From: an uncultured Gammaproteobacteria bacterium
GTDB lineage: Bacteria; Pseudomonadota; Gammaproteobacteria; GCA-002705445; GCA-002716945
NCBI GenBank assembly: GCA_902559355.1
Contig: CACEHM010000002.1
Coordinates: forward strand, 171,246-235,245
DNA length: 64,000 nucleotides
Reading direction: 5' to 3'
The position numbers were made by a program, and so were the translations under genes. Each line of letters begins with the position of its first letter. The first letter of the stretch is position 1. Of this stretch, positions 24,871-29,640 are shown piece by piece. The notes under the pieces were generated by a model. That model saw only the letters and a program-made list of their open reading frames with translations, ran no database searches and had not been told where the DNA came from.

Positions 24871-24888
24871 ACTCAAACATTTTTTTAA

Positions 24889-24940
24889 TACCACTGATCG
24901 GACTCGAACCGATACTTTCTTGCGAAAAAGGGATCTTGAG
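24889..24940 (-). pseudogene. 3' half of a split tRNA-Leu(CAA) gene: anticodon 3' stem, variable arm, T-arm, acceptor 3' strand
   Basis: The minus strand reads CTCAAGA-TCCCT-TTTTCGCAAGAAAGT-ATCGG-TTCGAGT-CCGAT-CAGTGGT-A. This gives a T-arm with a GGTTCGAGTCC loop, a GNRA-capped variable hairpin, and an acceptor 3' strand complementary to GCCACTG at 29674-29680. Confidence 0.7.
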
Positions 24941-24999
24941 TGCATTGTCTGCACCAACCCAACAGTTACAAGATTTTAACACATTTTTTAATATTTTTT

Positions 25000-25096: not shown

Positions 25097-25279
25097 ATGA
25101 AATTATCTATTCAGACTATCAAAGACTATTTCAAAAGTAAAAAAGATAAAAATAAAGATCTCATCTTTTTTGAAGAAATAGGAAATCAAAAAACTTCTAA
25201 AGATGACATCATGAAAAATTTGGTCAAGATCTTAGAAAAAAAAGGTTTCAAATATATAGATACAAAATATAAAGACTAA
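25097..25279 (+). CDS. small charged hypothetical protein (60 aa), first gene of the insertion
   Basis: Strong SD (AAAGGAGA), a promoter upstream and a terminator 20 nt downstream. I recognise no homolog. Confidence 0.45.
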   Translation: MKLSIQTIKDYFKSKKDKNKDLIFFEEIGNQKTSKDDIMKNLVKILEKKGFKYIDTKYKD

Positions 25280-25300: not shown

Positions 25301-25343
25301 AAAAAGAGAGTAACGAGTGCATCTCAACTACTCTCTTTTTTTG
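25301..25343. terminator. rho-independent terminator (bidirectional: A-run / hairpin / T-run)
   Basis: AAAAA-AGAGAGTA-(16-nt loop with inner GAG/CTC pairing)-TACTCTCT-TTTTTTT. Confidence 0.5.
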
Positions 25344-25411: not shown

Positions 25412-25440
25412 TTGACTTACAAATATCAGTAAACATAATA
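25412..25440 (+). promoter_or_regulatory. candidate sigma70 promoter for the five-gene cassette (TTGACT-17 nt-ATAATA)
   Basis: -35 TTGACT at 25412-25417, a 17-nt spacer, and -10 ATAATA at 25435-25440, about 70 nt upstream of the 25511 ATG. Confidence 0.35.
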
Positions 25441-25510: not shown

Positions 25511-26134
25511 ATGGATAAAGAAAAAATTAAAAATAAAATCTTAGATATTGAAACCAAGTATAATTTTACCGAGGGATACAAATTGCTATATTGTCCATGG
25601 TCAACTATTGAACACTCTTCGATTGCGTTTATATCATTAAACCCTGGCAGTAAAATGCCTGATGAGGCAGATATTAGATTGTTATCTGATGAGAGAGGTA
25701 ATTCATATGAAATAGAAATGCATACTACTAAATCTCCTATTACTCATCAATTTTTAGAACTGTGCAAACTTCTCAATAAGAATCCCTCAGATATTCTTAC
25801 TGGCACAATTTGTCCATTTAGAGGTAAATCATGGACATCATTTTCTCGTGATCAGAGAAATGCAGGTCTAATGCTAGGCAAATATTTCTGGCACAAAACT
25901 CTAGATAAGATTAACTTACTCATTTGCGTTGGTAATGATGTTGCAAAAAATATGACTTCTATTTCTGATTTTAAAAAAGAGAAAATTTTTGATTCAGGTT
26001 GGGGTGATATTAAAATAACAAGATATAAAGACAGCACAGGTAAGATACTTATTCATTTACCACACCTCTCTACTTTTAAACTTTTTTCTCGAAAAGAGTG
26101 CTTACTTGTTCTAAAACAAGTTTTTAAGTTATAG
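25511..26134 (+). CDS. hypothetical protein with UDG-superfamily (uracil-DNA glycosylase fold, family 4/SMUG-like) motif pattern
   Basis: IAFISLNPGSKMPDEAD resembles UDG motif 1 (hhhhG-x-[NA]-PG followed by acidic residues). HQFLELCKLL matches the following helix. TICPFRGKSW...LLICVGNDVA resembles the V-x-C-RP..NR...hhV-LG region. The C-terminal HLPHLS resembles UDG motif 2 (HPSPL). This is a recalled pattern match, not a database hit. Confidence 0.45.
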   Translation: MDKEKIKNKILDIETKYNFTEGYKLLYCPWSTIEHSSIAFISLNPGSKMPDEADIRLLSDERGNSYEIEMHTTKSPITHQFLELCKLLNKNPSDILTGTICPFRGKSWTSFSRDQRNAGLMLGKYFWHKTLDKINLLICVGNDVAKNMTSISDFKKEKIFDSGWGDIKITRYKDSTGKILIHLPHLSTFKLFSRKECLLVLKQVFKL

Positions 26135-26149
26135 ACTATAATTTAAATA

Positions 26150-27226
26150 ATGATTGATATACATGATAAACTGCCCTCTGATCTAATTATTGGCAATGAA
26201 TATACTAAACAAGAATTAGATAAGTTGTTTAAGACATCTGAAATTGAAAACATTTATGGGGGTATTGGAAAGATAAATAATCGTTTAATCTTGCTTATCA
26301 CTCTAGACAAAACCTACACCGCAGAACTTCCTAAAAATGAGTCTGAAATGTCAAGAGAAGAGAAGGAAGAGCATAATTATCGTCATCTTGACTATTTTGA
26401 TATGGAGGAAAATATTTTCTGTTGGGATGGACCTACTAATATGAATCTTGAGAGTCCTTTAATAAAAGACTTTACCTCAAAATTATATCAATGCCTGTTG
26501 TTTGTTAGAGAGTATTATCATAAAGATGAATATGAATTTAAGAATAAAATTACTAATGATAAGTATTTTTACTGTGGGAAGATAAGATATCAAAAACATA
26601 TTGATACTAAAATTAAACATTTTATTTCAAGTTTAGAAGATGAACCTAATAAGAAACTTAATCATTTATATAAATTCATACCGACTGAATTAGATGAAAG
26701 AAAGAAAGAATTTAATATCTTAAAAGAAAAAGAGAAAAATGATTTTATTGAGTTAGTGCATCAAGAAGAATCTCGCACTCATGAAAGGAAAAGCACTTTT
26801 TCTGGAAATCCAGGCATTAAAAAAGAGTATATGGTTGAAAGTAACCTCAAAGCAGTATGCGGTTTTCTTAATGAAAGAGGTGGTAACCTTATGATTGGTA
26901 TCGAAGACGATGGGGAGGTTACTGGTATAGAGAAAGATTATAATTATAAAGACAATGATCAATTTGAGAGACATATTCTTTTTCAAATGAGAAAACTAAT
27001 GGATAAATTTGAAGTAATTGAAAAATATATTAAGTTTCAATTTGAATATGCTTCTTTAAGTGATAAAGACTCATCTAGAAAAATAGTATGTAGAATAAAT
27101 TGTAGACCATTACCTGATGATGAAGTTTCTTATGTTAACGGTAAACTTTATTTAAGAGTAGGACCCCAAACTAATGAATTAAGTGTAAAAGAGGCGTTAT
27201 CATGGTTAAAGAGAAGACAAAAGTAA
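26150..27226 (+). CDS. protein with C-terminal AlbA_2 / Schlafen-like (divergent AAA-4) domain
   Basis: EESRTHERKSTF...AVCGFLNERGGNLMIGIEDDGEVTGIEKD matches the AlbA_2 signature (E-S-x-T-x-E-[FY]-K ... A-F-x-N-x-x-GG-x-L-x-IG-V-x-D-D-G-x-V-x-G-I). I recognise no family for the N-terminal ~190 aa. Confidence 0.5.
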   Translation: MIDIHDKLPSDLIIGNEYTKQELDKLFKTSEIENIYGGIGKINNRLILLITLDKTYTAELPKNESEMSREEKEEHNYRHLDYFDMEENIFCWDGPTNMNLESPLIKDFTSKLYQCLLFVREYYHKDEYEFKNKITNDKYFYCGKIRYQKHIDTKIKHFISSLEDEPNKKLNHLYKFIPTELDERKKEFNILKEKEKNDFIELVHQEESRTHERKSTFSGNPGIKKEYMVESNLKAVCGFLNERGGNLMIGIEDDGEVTGIEKDYNYKDNDQFERHILFQMRKLMDKFEVIEKYIKFQFEYASLSDKDSSRKIVCRINCRPLPDDEVSYVNGKLYLRVGPQTNELSVKEALSWLKRRQK

Positions 27227-27636
27227 AGATATACCAAGGTGGTTCAACAGGTTTAGTTCAACAAAATAAACGCATGATTATGAAGTCTTCTCACACCAAA
27301 GGTGATGTAGGGATTCAAAGACAATTAAAAGATATGTTAAAAGCGAAATTTTCTTTTCATATAGTAATTATGCACTTTGGTGATTTTTTCAGGATAATCG
27401 AAGAGGACGCAGAGTTTTTTAATAAAGAATTTAATTTTAAACTTTCACAACCAGGACGATACACTTTCGTTACAACTGCGTTCCCTCTAAATAGTAGGCA
27501 AAAATATATAGATAAACTTACTGATATGGAAAAACAATTTTGTCTTCTAGATCAATATAAAGTTGACGGTACAGAGGAATTTTATAGGAAGGTAAACATA
27601 TCAACAAATAAAGATGCACTAGGGTTCTGGTACTAA
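27202..27636 (+). CDS. stand-alone MutS domain I (mismatch-recognition domain)-like protein
   Basis: [45 protein letters not shown] parallels E. coli MutS [71 protein letters not shown] parallels [28 protein letters not shown]. The GDF-Y-E Glu is Arg here (GDFFR). The gene overlaps the upstream ORF by 25 nt; an alternative start is the Met at 27274. Confidence 0.5.
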   Translation: [144 protein letters not shown]

Positions 27637-27656: not shown

Positions 27657-28352
27657 ATGATTGATATAACTTTTGATATGTTCTCGGATACTCCTGAAGG
27701 AAAAGATCCAGATACATGGAGTCCAACGTTAAGAAAGTACCATCAAATTTTATGGAATAAACGATTACCCAATGGAACTATGTTTAGTCTTGATCTTGAG
27801 ACAAGACAGTTATTACATCACAGATCTCAATTAGGAGAATTTTATTTATCAAGTGATTGTATAGGTCATACATACAGTCGTACTAAAAGTATTTCTGATA
27901 TAGTCAATCAGATTCCCTTAAGTGAAATAGATTCGTTTTATAAACTATGTAGCACAATAGGTTCTTATATCATATATCCTTGCAAAAGAATTGATAATAA
28001 GATGACATTTAATGGTGCTCGAGGTACTAATCGCAAGATAAAAGATAGATTCGACCTAACATTAGAATGTATTCGATTGTTTTATCAAAATGAAAAAAGT
28101 CCACTTAGTGAGACTATAGAAAGATATAAATCATATTTTAAACTATTTGATAACTTTCAAGGTTATGTTGATTTCTTTTTACTTCAAGATTTAGTATCAA
28201 GTGATTATTCGTCTATTAAATATCTTATACCTTTTAAAGATTTCGATAGTCCAGCACTACCATGCAACGTAGAAGAATATATTACTTATAAAGATAATAC
28301 GACAAAATTTATTTCACAAAGAAATGAAAGAATATTAAAATCAATACAATGA
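27657..28352 (+). CDS. hypothetical protein (orphan, 231 aa)
   Basis: Tightly linked to its neighbours (ATGA overlap with the next gene). I recognise no motif. Conserved-looking stretch: DPDTWSPTLRKYHQILWNKRLPNG. Confidence 0.5.
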   Translation: MIDITFDMFSDTPEGKDPDTWSPTLRKYHQILWNKRLPNGTMFSLDLETRQLLHHRSQLGEFYLSSDCIGHTYSRTKSISDIVNQIPLSEIDSFYKLCSTIGSYIIYPCKRIDNKMTFNGARGTNRKIKDRFDLTLECIRLFYQNEKSPLSETIERYKSYFKLFDNFQGYVDFFLLQDLVSSDYSSIKYLIPFKDFDSPALPCNVEEYITYKDNTTKFISQRNERILKSIQ

Positions 28353-29419
28353 GTAAATTTAAACCTATCTTATACGACGAACTATTTAAATTAATAACAC
28401 TTGGTGATGATGAAGAATGGGAAAAATTTTCTTCAGAGTACGAACATGTCTTTACACCAGGGTTTTTCTCACAACTTTCTGACACCGAAATTTATGAACT
28501 ATTTAATCATTATCAATTTTTATCCATTGAATATTGGAATATTTATTCTTCTTCATTAATTAACTCAGAGAATAATAAAATTAGATCCAATCAACTTCTA
28601 AAAAAATATCGTGAAATATGGGAAGGAAAAACACATAATAAAAATAGCACAGTCACTCCTGGAATTAACGAAAGAAAAATTAAAGAAATTGATGATTTTG
28701 AATTTGCAATTAATTATCCAGTCGAGGAAATATTAGATCCATCATTAAGCGCCGCAGGACCACATTTCTCAGAGATTGTATTTTGTTCAATACTTTATAG
28801 TTTTTTTGAGGAAATACTAACAACCTTCGTATTTAATGTATCTGGAAGTAAGTGTTTTTTTAATAATATAAAATATAAAGATCATTACTTCTATAAAACA
28901 AATAGATATACAGACTTGTATAAAGATTATATGAAACATTCAATCAAAGAACCAAAGAGAAAAGACTATAAGAATTTAGATGATTTTTATTCGGAAAGAT
29001 TAAGATATAGAAACATTACTAAAAAAAGTCTTCCTGAAATTAAAAACAATGAATGGTTAGAGTTTTATAGAAATAATAAGGGTATTGATGGTCGAGAAGT
29101 CCCTGATTACATTATTAAAGCAAAATATATAGATCAAAGATGTGACAGTACATTATATTCTGACTTAATATCACAGAGTAGATTTAAAGAATTCAAAATT
29201 AAAAGGAACAATGTGATGCATGCAAAATCAAATGAATCTAATATATCAACTCTTGCATGTTTTGATATTATAACTGATTTGCTTAACTTCTTAATTAATG
29301 ATAAGAATATTATCAATCAATATTCTAGTTGTATAAGTCAAAACAGTCTAAGATTTGATATTGATAAATTAGATGACGATGATGCTATTTGGGTATTTCA
29401 ATCTGAGATGACTTATTAA
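28349..29419 (+). CDS. hypothetical protein with C-terminal HEPN/Abi_2-like R-x4-H motif (candidate RNase effector)
   Basis: The C-terminal FKIKRNNVMHAKSNESNISTLACFDII contains an R-N-x-x-x-H motif typical of HEPN abortive-infection proteins. Size and composition are compatible with AbiD/AbiF-like proteins. Weak. Confidence 0.35.
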   Translation: MSKFKPILYDELFKLITLGDDEEWEKFSSEYEHVFTPGFFSQLSDTEIYELFNHYQFLSIEYWNIYSSSLINSENNKIRSNQLLKKYREIWEGKTHNKNSTVTPGINERKIKEIDDFEFAINYPVEEILDPSLSAAGPHFSEIVFCSILYSFFEEILTTFVFNVSGSKCFFNNIKYKDHYFYKTNRYTDLYKDYMKHSIKEPKRKDYKNLDDFYSERLRYRNITKKSLPEIKNNEWLEFYRNNKGIDGREVPDYIIKAKYIDQRCDSTLYSDLISQSRFKEFKIKRNNVMHAKSNESNISTLACFDIITDLLNFLINDKNIINQYSSCISQNSLRFDIDKLDDDDAIWVFQSEMTY

Positions 29420-29425
29420 TATTTA

Positions 29426-29509
29426 TAGCGATAGACAGACTCGAACTGTCACTCTGTTGCCAGAATCGGATTTTGAGTCCGACGCGTCTACCAATTCCGC
29501 CATATCGCC
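29426..29509 (-). tRNA. tRNA-Leu (anticodon CAA), class II with long variable arm
   Basis: Cloverleaf read manually on the minus strand: acceptor GGCGATA/TATCGCT (G1-U72), D-arm GCG-GAATTGGTAGA-CGC, anticodon arm TCGGA-CTCAAAA-TCCGA, variable hairpin TCTG-GCAA-CAGA, T-arm GACAG-TTCGAGT-CTGTC, discriminator A, and no encoded CCA. Confidence 0.85.
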
Positions 29510-29640
29510 ATGAGTAATTTATTCTATCAAAAACACAAACACTTTGGAAAGGTGTATGTACGGATAAATGTTTGTGCAATGTTTGTGACTAAAATTTACA
29601 AATTATAAGCATTACCAAGGCATCTGATGCATCCGTCTTC

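What the first reader, a model, noticed from the sequence alone, without database searches (positions are those of the whole stretch)
25511..26134. UDG-superfamily-like protein as first gene of the cassette
The ordered motifs hhhhS-L-N-P-G-S (IAFISLNPGSKMPDEAD), a following G/H-Q-h-L-E-h-h-K-L-L helix, a C-P-F-R-G block about 40 aa later, hhICVGNDVA, and a C-terminal H-L-P-H-L-S recapitulate the order and spacing of UDG family 4/SMUG motifs (GxxPG...CRPP.NR...hhxLG...HPSPL). A glycosylase-fold protein next to a MutS_I homolog suggests base flipping or base excision on foreign DNA, as with the Brig1-type anti-phage glycosylases.
Basis: partly seen in the sequence, partly recalled or inferred. 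Interest (0 to 1): 0.65.

Follow-up and report, generated by a model that had tools for sequence, protein, structure and literature searches.

The report
Unclassified UDG-fold glycosylase in defence island
The gene encodes a real, well-conserved protein with the uracil-DNA-glycosylase fold, from a family nobody has characterised; it spreads horizontally on its own and may excise odd bases from phage DNA, but it is not an iron-sulfur family-4 enzyme and has no conserved link to the MutS-like gene.

Summary

Three details are wrong:
- The catalytic loop is the Asn type, S-L-N-P-G, as in MUG, SMUG1 and Brig1, not the family-4 Glu type.
- The cysteines are not conserved (17-48 of 98), so there is no Fe-S cluster.
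- The usual base-reading Asn after strand β2 is Thr here.

The cassette is a mosaic. No neighbour is conserved across 40 loci. The SLFN-MutS_I block looks inserted between this gene and DUF6994, its partner only in this clade.

The gene is compositionally foreign in most genomes (mean -4.7 GC points) and absent from phages. The most likely function is a stand-alone, horizontally mobile base-excision enzyme, plausibly antiviral like Brig1-3. This is untested.

The parts
25511..26134 (+). UDG-fold protein gene (called UDGL here), 207 aa plus stop codon
25634..25648 (+). Motif 1, the water-activating loop S42-L-N44-P-G46, directly after strand β1
   Evidence: N44 is conserved in 95/98 sequences, P45 in 98/98 and G46 in 87/98. 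Position 42 is S in 48 and G in 35. hhalign places it on GMNPG of human SMUG1.
25697..25717 (+). Family-specific block G63-N-S-Y66-E-I-E69 in the long loop after motif 1
   Evidence: G63 is conserved in 95/98, Y66 in 93/98 and E69 in 90/98. A role lining the base pocket is inferred and was not tested.
25799..25825 (+). Motif 3 region, T97-G-T99-I-C-P102-F-R104-G105, at the end of strand β2
   Evidence: P102 is conserved in 98/98, F103 in 92/98 and R104 in 96/98. Position 99, which corresponds to the base-reading Asn of classical UDGs and to E147 of Brig1, is N in 31, V in 25 and T in 17. hhalign aligns this block with ILNFELYPWHS of Brig1.
26060..26071 (+). Motif 2, P184-H185-L-S187, directly after strand β4
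   Evidence: H185 is conserved in 96/98, L186 in 94/98 and S187 in 96/98. hhalign places it on LPNPS of E. coli Mug.
25412..25439 (+). Promoter-like site (TTGACT, 16-nt spacer, CATAAT) 72 nt upstream of the start codon
   Evidence: Consensus scan. The number of such sites in the region is not above shuffled expectation, so this is suggestive only.
25301..25342 (+). Terminator-like hairpin plus U-run ending the upstream 60-aa ORF's transcription unit
   Evidence: RNA fold gives -16.6 kcal/mol with z -3.25. Sequence.
26150..27636 (+). SLFN_AlbA_2 gene (26150-27226) plus MutS_I-only gene (27202-27636). This block is probably inserted between UDGL and DUF6994.
   Evidence: Pfam matches. The block is absent between UDGL and DUF6994 in L005 and L051. 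Both the SLFN and DUF6994 ORFs begin with ATGATTGATATA.
27657..28352 (+). DUF6994 gene, a predicted HNH-like ββα nuclease. It is UDGL's direct neighbour in sister strains.
   Evidence: Pfam E-value 3.4e-90. It overlaps UDGL by 4 nt in L005-7 and L051. The fold prediction comes from PMC11701544.
28349..29419 (+). Last gene of the cassette, 356 aa, a near-orphan with an R-x4-H motif (RNNVMH)
   Evidence: No family matches. Only 3 homologue clusters exist. It also follows DUF6994 in L137 and lies next to dndCDE in L136.
24885..24965 (-). Degenerate tRNA-Ser-like fragment marking the left edge of the island
   Evidence: It aligns with an intact tRNA-Ser(CGA) in L005 and with two copies that flank the UDGL-DUF6994 module in L051.
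29425..29510 (-). tRNA-Leu(CAA) marking the right edge of the island
   Evidence: ARAGORN result. The same tRNA bounds the island in L005 and L051.

Best explanation
[quoted passage not shown] It belongs to an uncharacterised family of about 700 clusters at 50% identity, found mainly in marine and aquatic Alpha- and Gammaproteobacteria.

Shown here:
- It has the UDG fold.
- It has an Asn-type catalytic loop (S/G-L-N-P-G), as in MUG/TDG, SMUG1 and Brig1.
- It has a conserved His after strand β4 (P-H-L-S), as in UNG, SMUG1 and families 4/5.
- It has no conserved Cys set, so no Fe-S cluster.

Inferred mechanism: the enzyme flips a base out of DNA into a pocket. N44 positions the attacking water. 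H185 stabilises the leaving pyrimidine. The usual uracil-reading Asn after β2 is replaced by Thr/Val in this clade, so the preferred substrate is probably a non-canonical pyrimidine rather than plain uracil.

Inferred biological role: the gene acts on its own as a horizontally transferred accessory gene. Its most likely role is Brig-like antiviral base excision, which makes abasic sites in modified phage DNA. In this lineage the abasic sites may then be processed by the adjacent DUF6994 nuclease-like protein, and by an EEP-family enzyme in a sister strain.

My confidence by layer: fold and homology about 0.97; active glycosylase about 0.75; antiviral role about 0.5. The single confidence figure given for this explanation (0.55) is for the whole statement, antiviral layer included.
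For: Fold:
- AlphaFold2 model, pLDDT 95.6 and pTM 0.92.
- In Foldseek against PDB, ranks 1-18 are all UDG-superfamily structures and almost all have probability 1.00. The best is 4zby at E 3.9e-5.
- The viral structure library returns essentially UDG-fold proteins among its significant matches.

Sequence bridge to known UDGs:
- 34 of 64 distant relatives match Pfam PF03167, best E 1.3e-7. These relatives matched the family profile at about E 1e-25 to 1e-39.
- NCBI annotates a 29%-identical Roseibium homologue as 'uracil-DNA glycosylase family protein'.

Catalytic residues:
- They are conserved across 98 sequences.
- They align to the SMUG1 and Mug motifs.

Accessory and mobile status:
- No neighbour is conserved across 40 loci.
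- The gene's GC is below its flanks by a mean of 4.7 points. It falls in the lowest 5% of local windows in 12 of 41 loci, where about 2 are expected.
- In several loci a tRNA or an integrase lies within about 1-2.5 kb.

Defence context:
- Type I R-M sits next to the gene in L005-7.
- NgoFVII R-M and DUF2130 are nearby in L008.
- HNH and PvuRts1I/SRA genes are nearby in L014.
- A NACHT protein is adjacent on the Roseibium plasmid.
- R-M methylases, JetD, DarG, a BrnT toxin and Vsr occur among the +/-2 neighbours.

Precedent:
- UDG-superfamily antiviral glycosylases Brig1, Brig2 and Brig3 are published (PMC11078745; 10.1101/2025.10.29.685425; 10.64898/2026.02.25.707755).
Against: - No activity data exist for any member of the family.
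- The window protein matches no Pfam, NCBIfam, PADLOC or PHROG model.
- Its similarity to Brig1 is no better than to MUG or SMUG1 (hhalign E 0.013, probability 3%).
- Many neighbours in Rhodobacterales and Pseudomonadales loci are housekeeping genes.
- Four Pseudomonadales loci share synteny, which suggests stable residence there.
- I did not count the fraction of loci with defence genes locus by locus, and I ran no background control for it.
- Residue-level pocket assignments are inferred from secondary structure and hhalign. I had no model coordinates to superimpose.
Confidence: 0.55

Rival explanations
1. It is an accessory DNA-repair glycosylase that removes deaminated or oxidised bases (uracil, hydroxymethyluracil, xanthine and the like) from the host chromosome. 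It was acquired horizontally as a back-up to canonical repair enzymes and has nothing to do with phages.
For: All classical UDG families are repair enzymes. The catalytic Asn and His are conserved. Many loci have only housekeeping neighbours. Four Pseudomonadales loci share synteny. One genome, Tranquillimonas, carries two copies.
Against: The gene has strongly atypical GC in most hosts. Its location is hypervariable and gene-by-gene shuffled in the window's clade. It is adjacent to R-M, NACHT, integrase and tRNA genes in several loci. The uracil-reading Asn is lost in this clade.
Confidence: 0.28
2. One reading: the protein is the obligate first component of a five-gene system and works together with the MutS_I homologue, the glycosylase flipping or excising bases that MutS_I recognises on foreign DNA.
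For: In this genome the five genes are co-directional with gaps of 20 nt or less or with overlaps. A terminator-like hairpin and a promoter-like site lie upstream of the first gene. A MutS_I-only gene is also present in the sister island L005.
Against: None of 34 genome loci has MutS_I, SLFN or DUF6994 near the homologue. In L005 the MutS_I gene is separated from UDGL by a whole type I R-M system, and in L051 it is absent. The SLFN-MutS_I block carries an insertion signature. Near-identical strains break synteny at about 27231.
Confidence: 0.06
3. It is a family-4-type (thermophile-like) uracil-DNA glycosylase with a 4Fe-4S cluster ligated by the four cysteines the first reader listed.
For: The best structural neighbours are family-4 enzymes. 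This protein has five Cys residues.
Against: No Cys column is conserved above 49% and no set of four co-varies. Motif 1 has Asn where family 4 has Glu. The window protein gave no match at E <= 1 to any NCBIfam model, TIGR00758 and NF040953 included; among 63 distant relatives scanned separately these two models got 1 and 3 weak hits.
Confidence: 0.02
4. It is a catalytically inert UDG-fold DNA-binding module, like the UDG-like domains of phage family-A polymerases or vaccinia D4 acting as a processivity factor. It would act as a sensor or adaptor for neighbouring effectors.
For: UDG-like domains without glycosylase function exist and appear among the structural matches (9qhs, 8q3r; phage PolA proteins). 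The motif-3 Asn is missing.
Against: The residues needed for chemistry (N44, H185) are conserved in 95/98 and 96/98 sequences, as in active families. The protein usually occurs with no conserved partner to sense for.
Confidence: 0.08

Closest known systems
Brig1 / Brig3 (UDG-superfamily anti-phage glycosylases acting on glucosyl-5hmC and 5hmC)
   Different: There is no significant sequence relationship (hhalign probability 3%). The window protein gave no match at E <= 1 to any NCBIfam model, which includes the Brig1 model NF047634; in a separate scan of 63 distant relatives NF047634 got one hit, E 0.0015. The acidic base-reading residue (Brig1 E147, Brig3 D127) is Thr here. This family keeps a motif-2 His, which I did not see in the Brig1 C-terminus. 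The taxa differ: marine Proteobacteria here, mostly Actinobacteria for Brig1.
Brig2 (integron-borne UDG-like glycosylase that defends against phages with modified thymidine)
   Same: It is a UDG-fold, single-gene, horizontally mobile protein found mostly in Pseudomonadota, and it sits in AT-rich regions.
Family 3 SMUG1 and family 2 MUG/TDG
   Different: The profile match is not significant (probability 5-8%). Position 1 of motif 1 is Ser. A roughly 15-residue insertion follows motif 1. The G-N-S-Y..E, Q80, W127 and W164-G165 signatures are specific to this family.
Family 4 / family 5 UDG (UDGa, UDGb) and UdgX
   Different: There is no Glu or Ala in motif 1, no conserved Fe-S cysteines, no motif-3 Asn in this clade, and no NCBIfam or Pfam match.

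Membership tests
UDG superfamily (α/β-fold DNA glycosylases; Pfam PF03167 and clan) | Four-stranded parallel β-sheet flanked by helices (the UDG fold) | tested here: met
UDG superfamily (α/β-fold DNA glycosylases; Pfam PF03167 and clan) | Motif 1 (G-x-x-P-G type water-activating loop) directly after β1 | tested here: met
   S42-L-N-P-G46 follows strand 38-42. N44 is conserved in 95/98 and P45 in 98/98. The first position is S in 48 and G in 35 sequences. It aligns to GMNPG of SMUG1.
UDG superfamily (α/β-fold DNA glycosylases; Pfam PF03167 and clan) | Motif 2 (His or Asn followed by P-S) directly after β4 | tested here: met
   P184-H185-L-S187 follows strand 179-183. H185 and S187 are each conserved in 96/98. 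It aligns to LPNPS of Mug.
UDG superfamily (α/β-fold DNA glycosylases; Pfam PF03167 and clan) | Motif 3 Asn after β2 that reads uracil N3/O4 | tested here: not met
   Position 99 is Thr in the window protein. Across the family it is N in 31, V in 25 and T in 17 of 98. This feature varies among UDG families, so failing it does not exclude superfamily membership.
UDG superfamily (α/β-fold DNA glycosylases; Pfam PF03167 and clan) | Significant match to the Pfam UDG profile | tested here: inconclusive
   The window protein has no hit at E <= 1. However, 34 of 64 distant family members match PF03167, best E 1.3e-7, so the link is transitive.
UDG superfamily (α/β-fold DNA glycosylases; Pfam PF03167 and clan) | N-glycosidic bond hydrolysis on DNA | not testable with these tools
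   This needs a biochemical assay.
Family 4 UDG (UDGa) | Motif 1 G-E-[AG]-P-G with Glu | tested here: not met
   The position is Asn in 95/98 sequences. The Tth UDGa motif GEGP is given in PMC9796141.
Family 4 UDG (UDGa) | Four conserved Cys ligating a 4Fe-4S cluster | tested here: not met
   Cys columns are conserved in 48, 30, 17, 21 and 41 of 98 sequences.
Family 4 UDG (UDGa) | Match to TIGR00758 or NF040953 | tested here: not met
   The window protein gave no match at E <= 1 to any NCBIfam model. In a separate scan of 63 distant relatives, only 1 and 3 reach E 0.0055 and 0.0025.
Brig1 (NCBIfam NF047634 antiviral_Brig1) | Match to the family model or the Brig1 sequence | tested here: not met
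   The window protein gave no match at E <= 1 to any NCBIfam model, NF047634 included. In a separate scan of 63 distant relatives, 1 hits NF047634 at E 0.0015. hhalign to Brig1 gives E 0.013, probability 3%, over 55 columns. BLASTP finds nothing. The Brig1 sequence was read from a machine-read supplement PDF, so small errors are possible.
Brig1 (NCBIfam NF047634 antiviral_Brig1) | Acidic base-contacting residue after β2 (E147) | tested here: not met
   The aligned position is T99.
Brig1 (NCBIfam NF047634 antiviral_Brig1) | Location in defence islands | tested here: met
   This holds for the window's marine low-GC relatives and a plasmid copy. It is mixed in the other loci.
Brig2 / Brig3 | Sequence or structural match to the characterised proteins | not tested
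   The sequences are not in the held supplements. No Brig3 entry appeared among the listed PDB matches.

The most novel reading that the evidence does not exclude
In this marine lineage the glycosylase and the translationally coupled DUF6994 HNH-like protein would form a small mobile restriction module. A third gene differs between strains (an EEP-family enzyme in L005). The module is flanked by tRNA-fragment repeats. The glycosylase would excise a modified phage base, and the partner nucleases would convert the abasic sites into strand breaks. That would be a glycosylase-initiated, modification-dependent restriction system, carried by a tRNA-targeting cassette-shuffling island.
Probability: 0.18. 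Interest if true: 0.7.

Novelty: new variant of a known kind. Interest (0 to 1): 0.5.

Why it matters
UDG-fold glycosylases have only recently been recognised as antiviral effectors (Brig1 in 2024; Brig2 and Brig3 in 2025-26). Each was found by functional screening or by structure, because sequence models miss them.

This is a further sizeable family of about 700 clusters at 50% identity. Current Pfam, NCBIfam and PADLOC models do not detect the window's clade. It has an unusual active-site make-up: Ser-Leu-Asn-Pro-Gly in motif 1, His in motif 2 and no Asn in motif 3. It also shows clear signs of horizontal mobility.

If the family is antiviral, it would add a new specificity class. It would also point to modified-DNA phages as a selective force on abundant, uncultured marine bacteria.

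If it is a repair enzyme, it is a new UDG family with a probably non-uracil substrate.

Either way it is a well-defined, cheap target for biochemistry.

Tried and rejected
Searches and tests that found nothing or could not be completed:
- Direct sequence searches of the protein and of two family profiles against PDB gave no meaningful hits.
- Pfam, NCBIfam, PADLOC and PHROGs scans of the window protein gave nothing.
- The AFDB50 fold library was unavailable.
- A search for a conserved partner gene across 40 loci found nothing. All-against-all BLAST of neighbours found only clade-specific synteny in five loci or fewer. The large upstream ORFs that abut the gene in many loci are unrelated to each other, apart from one group of four.
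- The reverse test found almost no link. Of 80 metagenomic DUF6994 loci, only one has a UDGL gene, about 3 kb away and not adjacent.
- Phage origin is rejected. There were no hits in 50,697 phage records and none in IMG/VR by pattern.
- The Fe-S hypothesis is rejected on Cys conservation.
- Brig1 membership is rejected.
- Brig2 and Brig3 sequences could not be obtained.
- The source genome could not be named. The exact-protein look-ups returned only short metagenome contigs or nothing.
- My first repeat search missed the island's left boundary, because the search region started inside the tRNA-like fragment. The boundary was found later by comparison with sister loci.
- The last cassette gene has too few homologues (3 clusters) for a useful structure prediction, so I did not attempt one.

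Full report
**1. Observation**

The window has an ATG-initiated ORF at 25511-26134 (+) of 207 aa. The gene is real:
- It has 81 homologue clusters in the 90%-identity collection.
- A family profile finds 723 representatives at E <= 1e-3 among 1.84 billion proteins.
- dN/dS against two orthologues of 84-86% identity is 0.08-0.11.

No Pfam, NCBIfam, PADLOC or PHROG model matches the protein. Neither it nor its family profiles match any PDB sequence.

**2. Fold and homology**

An AlphaFold2 model built on a 44-sequence alignment is very confident, with pLDDT 95.6 and pTM 0.92.

Structure searches agree:
- In Foldseek against PDB, ranks 1-18 are all UDG-superfamily enzymes. These are families 4 and 5, TDG and SMUG1, and almost all have probability 1.00. 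UdgX follows further down the list. The best hit is Sulfolobus tokodaii family 4, E 3.9e-5, TM 0.57-0.60.
- The viral structure library returns essentially UDG-fold proteins among its significant matches.

At sequence level the link is transitive:
- 34 of 64 distant members of the same family match Pfam PF03167 UDG, best E 1.3e-7. These members are 24-32% identical to the window protein and matched the family profile at roughly E 1e-25 to 1e-39.
- NCBI names a 29%-identical plasmid homologue 'uracil-DNA glycosylase family protein'.
- JGI names two longer homologues 'uracil-DNA glycosylase'.

**3. Active-site anatomy**

Across 98 homologues the near-invariant positions are N44, P45, G63, Y66, E69, Q80, P102, F103, R104, W127, W164, G165, P184, H185, L186 and S187. 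Their positions in the model are as follows:
- S42-L-N-P-G46 directly follows strand β1.
- T97-G-T-I-C-P-F-R-G105 ends strand β2.
- G141 follows β3.
- P184-H-L-S187 follows β4.

These are the positions of UDG motifs 1, 3 and 2. Their roles are summarised in PMC9796141: the motif-2 His stabilises the departing pyrimidine through O2, and the motif-3 Asn reads N3/O4.

Profile-to-sequence alignments are individually weak (E 0.005-0.007) but geometrically consistent. They put SLNPG on GMNPG of human SMUG1 and LPHLS on LPNPS of E. coli Mug.

The chemistry is therefore of the Asn type (families 2 and 3, and Brig1's GLNPG) combined with a motif-2 His (families 1, 3, 4 and 5).

Two features are unusual:
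- Ser replaces the almost universal first Gly of motif 1. The position is S in 48/98 and G in 35/98.
- The motif-3 position is Thr here. Across the family it is N in 31, V in 25 and T in 17.

The unusual motif-3 residue argues for a substrate other than plain uracil. That is an inference.

**4. Context in this genome**

The upstream 60-aa ORF ends with a hairpin plus U-run (-16.6 kcal/mol, z -3.25). A promoter-like site lies at 25412-25439. Five co-directional genes follow with gaps of 20 nt or less, or with overlaps:
- UDGL
- an SLFN_AlbA_2 protein
- a MutS_I-only protein
- DUF6994 (E 3.4e-90)
- a 356-aa near-orphan

The block ends 6 nt from tRNA-Leu(CAA). Its left edge is a degenerate tRNA-Ser-like fragment at about 24885-24965. 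So 'first gene of the cassette' is a fair description of this genome's layout.

**5. Context elsewhere**

The cassette is a mosaic of individually shuffled genes.

In the sister contigs L005-7 (86% identical UDGL), the layout reads as follows:
- SLFN
- DUF2130
- an intact tRNA-Ser
- MutS_I
- a type I R-M system (hsdM, hsdS, hsdR)
- UDGL
- DUF6994
- an EEP-family enzyme
- tRNA-Leu

There UDGL and DUF6994 overlap by 4 nt.

In L051 the chromosome is syntenic, with flanks 70-74% identical. The island there is just UDGL-DUF6994 plus a 223-aa gene, flanked by two tRNA-Ser-like fragments.

In the window, the SLFN and DUF6994 ORFs both begin with ATGATTGATATA. This suggests that the SLFN-MutS_I block was inserted at the DUF6994 start. 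Contigs 99.3% identical to the window break synteny at about 27231 and continue into different modules.

Beyond this clade:
- 34 genome loci (Rhodobacterales, Pseudomonadales, SAR86 and others; 33-45% identity) contain no SLFN, MutS_I or DUF6994 homologue within 10 kb.
- They share no conserved neighbour at all.
- Conversely, only 1 of 80 metagenomic DUF6994 loci has a UDGL gene nearby.

The link to MutS_I is therefore incidental. The link to DUF6994 is real but confined to this lineage.

**6. Mobility and defence signals**

The gene's GC content is lower than its 8-20 kb surroundings by a mean of 4.7 points (median 4.0), and by up to 19.5 points in Oceanicola granulosus. It lies in the lowest 5% of local windows in 12 of 41 loci, where about 2 are expected.

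Nearby mobile or defence features include:
- tRNA genes or an integrase within about 1-2.5 kb in several loci;
- R-M systems in L005 and L008, and about 1.2 kb away in L001;
- HNH and PvuRts1I/SRA genes in L014;
- a NACHT protein and a recombinase on a Roseibium plasmid;
- methylases, Vsr, EcoRII-C, JetD, DarG and a BrnT toxin among the +/-2 neighbours.

Many ordinary metabolic genes also appear among those neighbours. The family is absent from phage genomes.

**7. Mechanism**

I commit to the following. The protein is a stand-alone monofunctional DNA glycosylase that flips a base into its pocket. N44 positions the water and H185 stabilises the leaving pyrimidine. It is a horizontally mobile accessory gene.

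Its most likely role is Brig-like antiviral excision of a non-canonical pyrimidine from phage DNA. Abasic sites would block replication, and in this lineage they might be cut by DUF6994 and by the EEP enzyme of L005. DUF6994 is predicted to be HNH-like in PMC11701544.

The fold, motif conservation and mobility are shown. Catalysis, substrate and the antiviral role are inferred.

The main rival is an accessory repair glycosylase (about 0.28). The five-gene MutS_I model, the Fe-S family-4 model and an inert DNA-binding module are each unlikely.

**8. Comparison with known families**

Membership in Brig1 fails:
- The window protein matches no NCBIfam model, the Brig1 model NF047634 included, and only one of 63 distant relatives hits that model weakly.
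- hhalign to Brig1 gives probability 3%.
- Thr stands in place of E147.

Membership in family 4 fails on three defining features. Brig2 and Brig3 could not be compared, because their sequences are not held. This is the main uncertainty about novelty.

**9. Verdict**

This is a new, unannotated family within a known superfamily, doing a known kind of job. It has an unusual active-site make-up and clear horizontal mobility. I score interest at 0.5.

Noticed in passing
window 24885-24965 (- strand); L005 1361-1446; L051 6250-6345 and 8378-8470; L054 1-104: A degenerate tRNA-Ser-like fragment sits at the left edge of the island. It overlaps the spurious 5' extension of the AFG1 ORF, whose true start is probably the ATG near 24880. 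The same element is an intact tRNA-Ser(CGA) in L005, and two copies flank the UDGL-DUF6994-223aa module in L051. This is the signature of a tRNA-targeting integrative element or cassette array. It resembles the tRNA-linked islands of marine bacteria, though that comparison is from memory only.
   Followed up: partly
window 26150-26161 and 27657-27668; breakpoint near 27217-27234: The SLFN_AlbA_2 and DUF6994 ORFs start with the same 12 nt, ATGATTGATATA. In L005 an 18-nt stretch at the MutS_I start is duplicated around an inserted DUF2130 + tRNA-Ser block. Contigs 99.3% identical to the window (L134, L135) diverge at about 27231 into different modules. Genes here appear to be swapped one at a time, at gene starts, through very short homologies. 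Some of the metagenome joins could be assembly chimeras.
   Followed up: partly
window 27657-28352; loci L051-L133: DUF6994 is very abundant (at least 4,936 clusters) and unusually well conserved, at 58-91% identity across marine metagenomes. Its upstream and downstream neighbours are almost all different from locus to locus, and many overlap it by 4 nt. The pattern is a conserved core gene with hypervariable, translationally coupled partners.
   Followed up: partly
window 28349-29419: The last cassette gene (356 aa) matches no family and has only 3 homologue clusters. It carries an R-x4-H motif (RNNVMH) reminiscent of HEPN RNases. A 96%-identical copy again follows DUF6994 in L137, after a PLD-SNF2 helicase and an Eco57I-type methylase. 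A 67% copy lies beside dndC, dndD and dndE in L136.
   Followed up: partly
window 27202-27636; L005 1476-1892: This is a stand-alone 144-aa protein consisting only of MutS domain I (Pfam E 1.1e-7). In L005 its orthologue sits directly upstream of a type I R-M operon. I know of no characterised role for such a mini-protein.
   Followed up: no
window 26150-27226: This 358-aa protein has a C-terminal Schlafen AlbA_2 domain (residues 207-344, E 5e-14) and an N-terminal half of about 200 aa that matches nothing. It is found directly after UDGL in two near-identical metagenome contigs.
   Followed up: no
L005 9310-9984 (also L006, L007): An Exo_endo_phos (EEP) family protein (E 8e-6, full-length match) follows UDGL-DUF6994 with 4-nt overlaps in the sister strain. 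The EEP superfamily includes the ExoIII/APE1 AP endonucleases, which would fit processing of glycosylase-made abasic sites. The gene is absent from the window.
   Followed up: no
proteins P0167, P0044/P0050/P0052, P0025, P0079: Some family members are fused to other regions. P0167 has a C-terminal EcsC domain. The forms of about 310 aa have an unassigned C-terminal extension of about 100 aa. P0025 and P0079 have N-terminal extensions of about 100 aa. None of the extensions matched Pfam significantly except EcsC.
   Followed up: partly
window 25097-25279: This 60-aa lysine-rich ORF has its own terminator-like hairpin (25301-25342), just inside the island's left edge. It is weakly similar (41% over 39 aa) to an ORF in the defence island of L008.
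   Followed up: no
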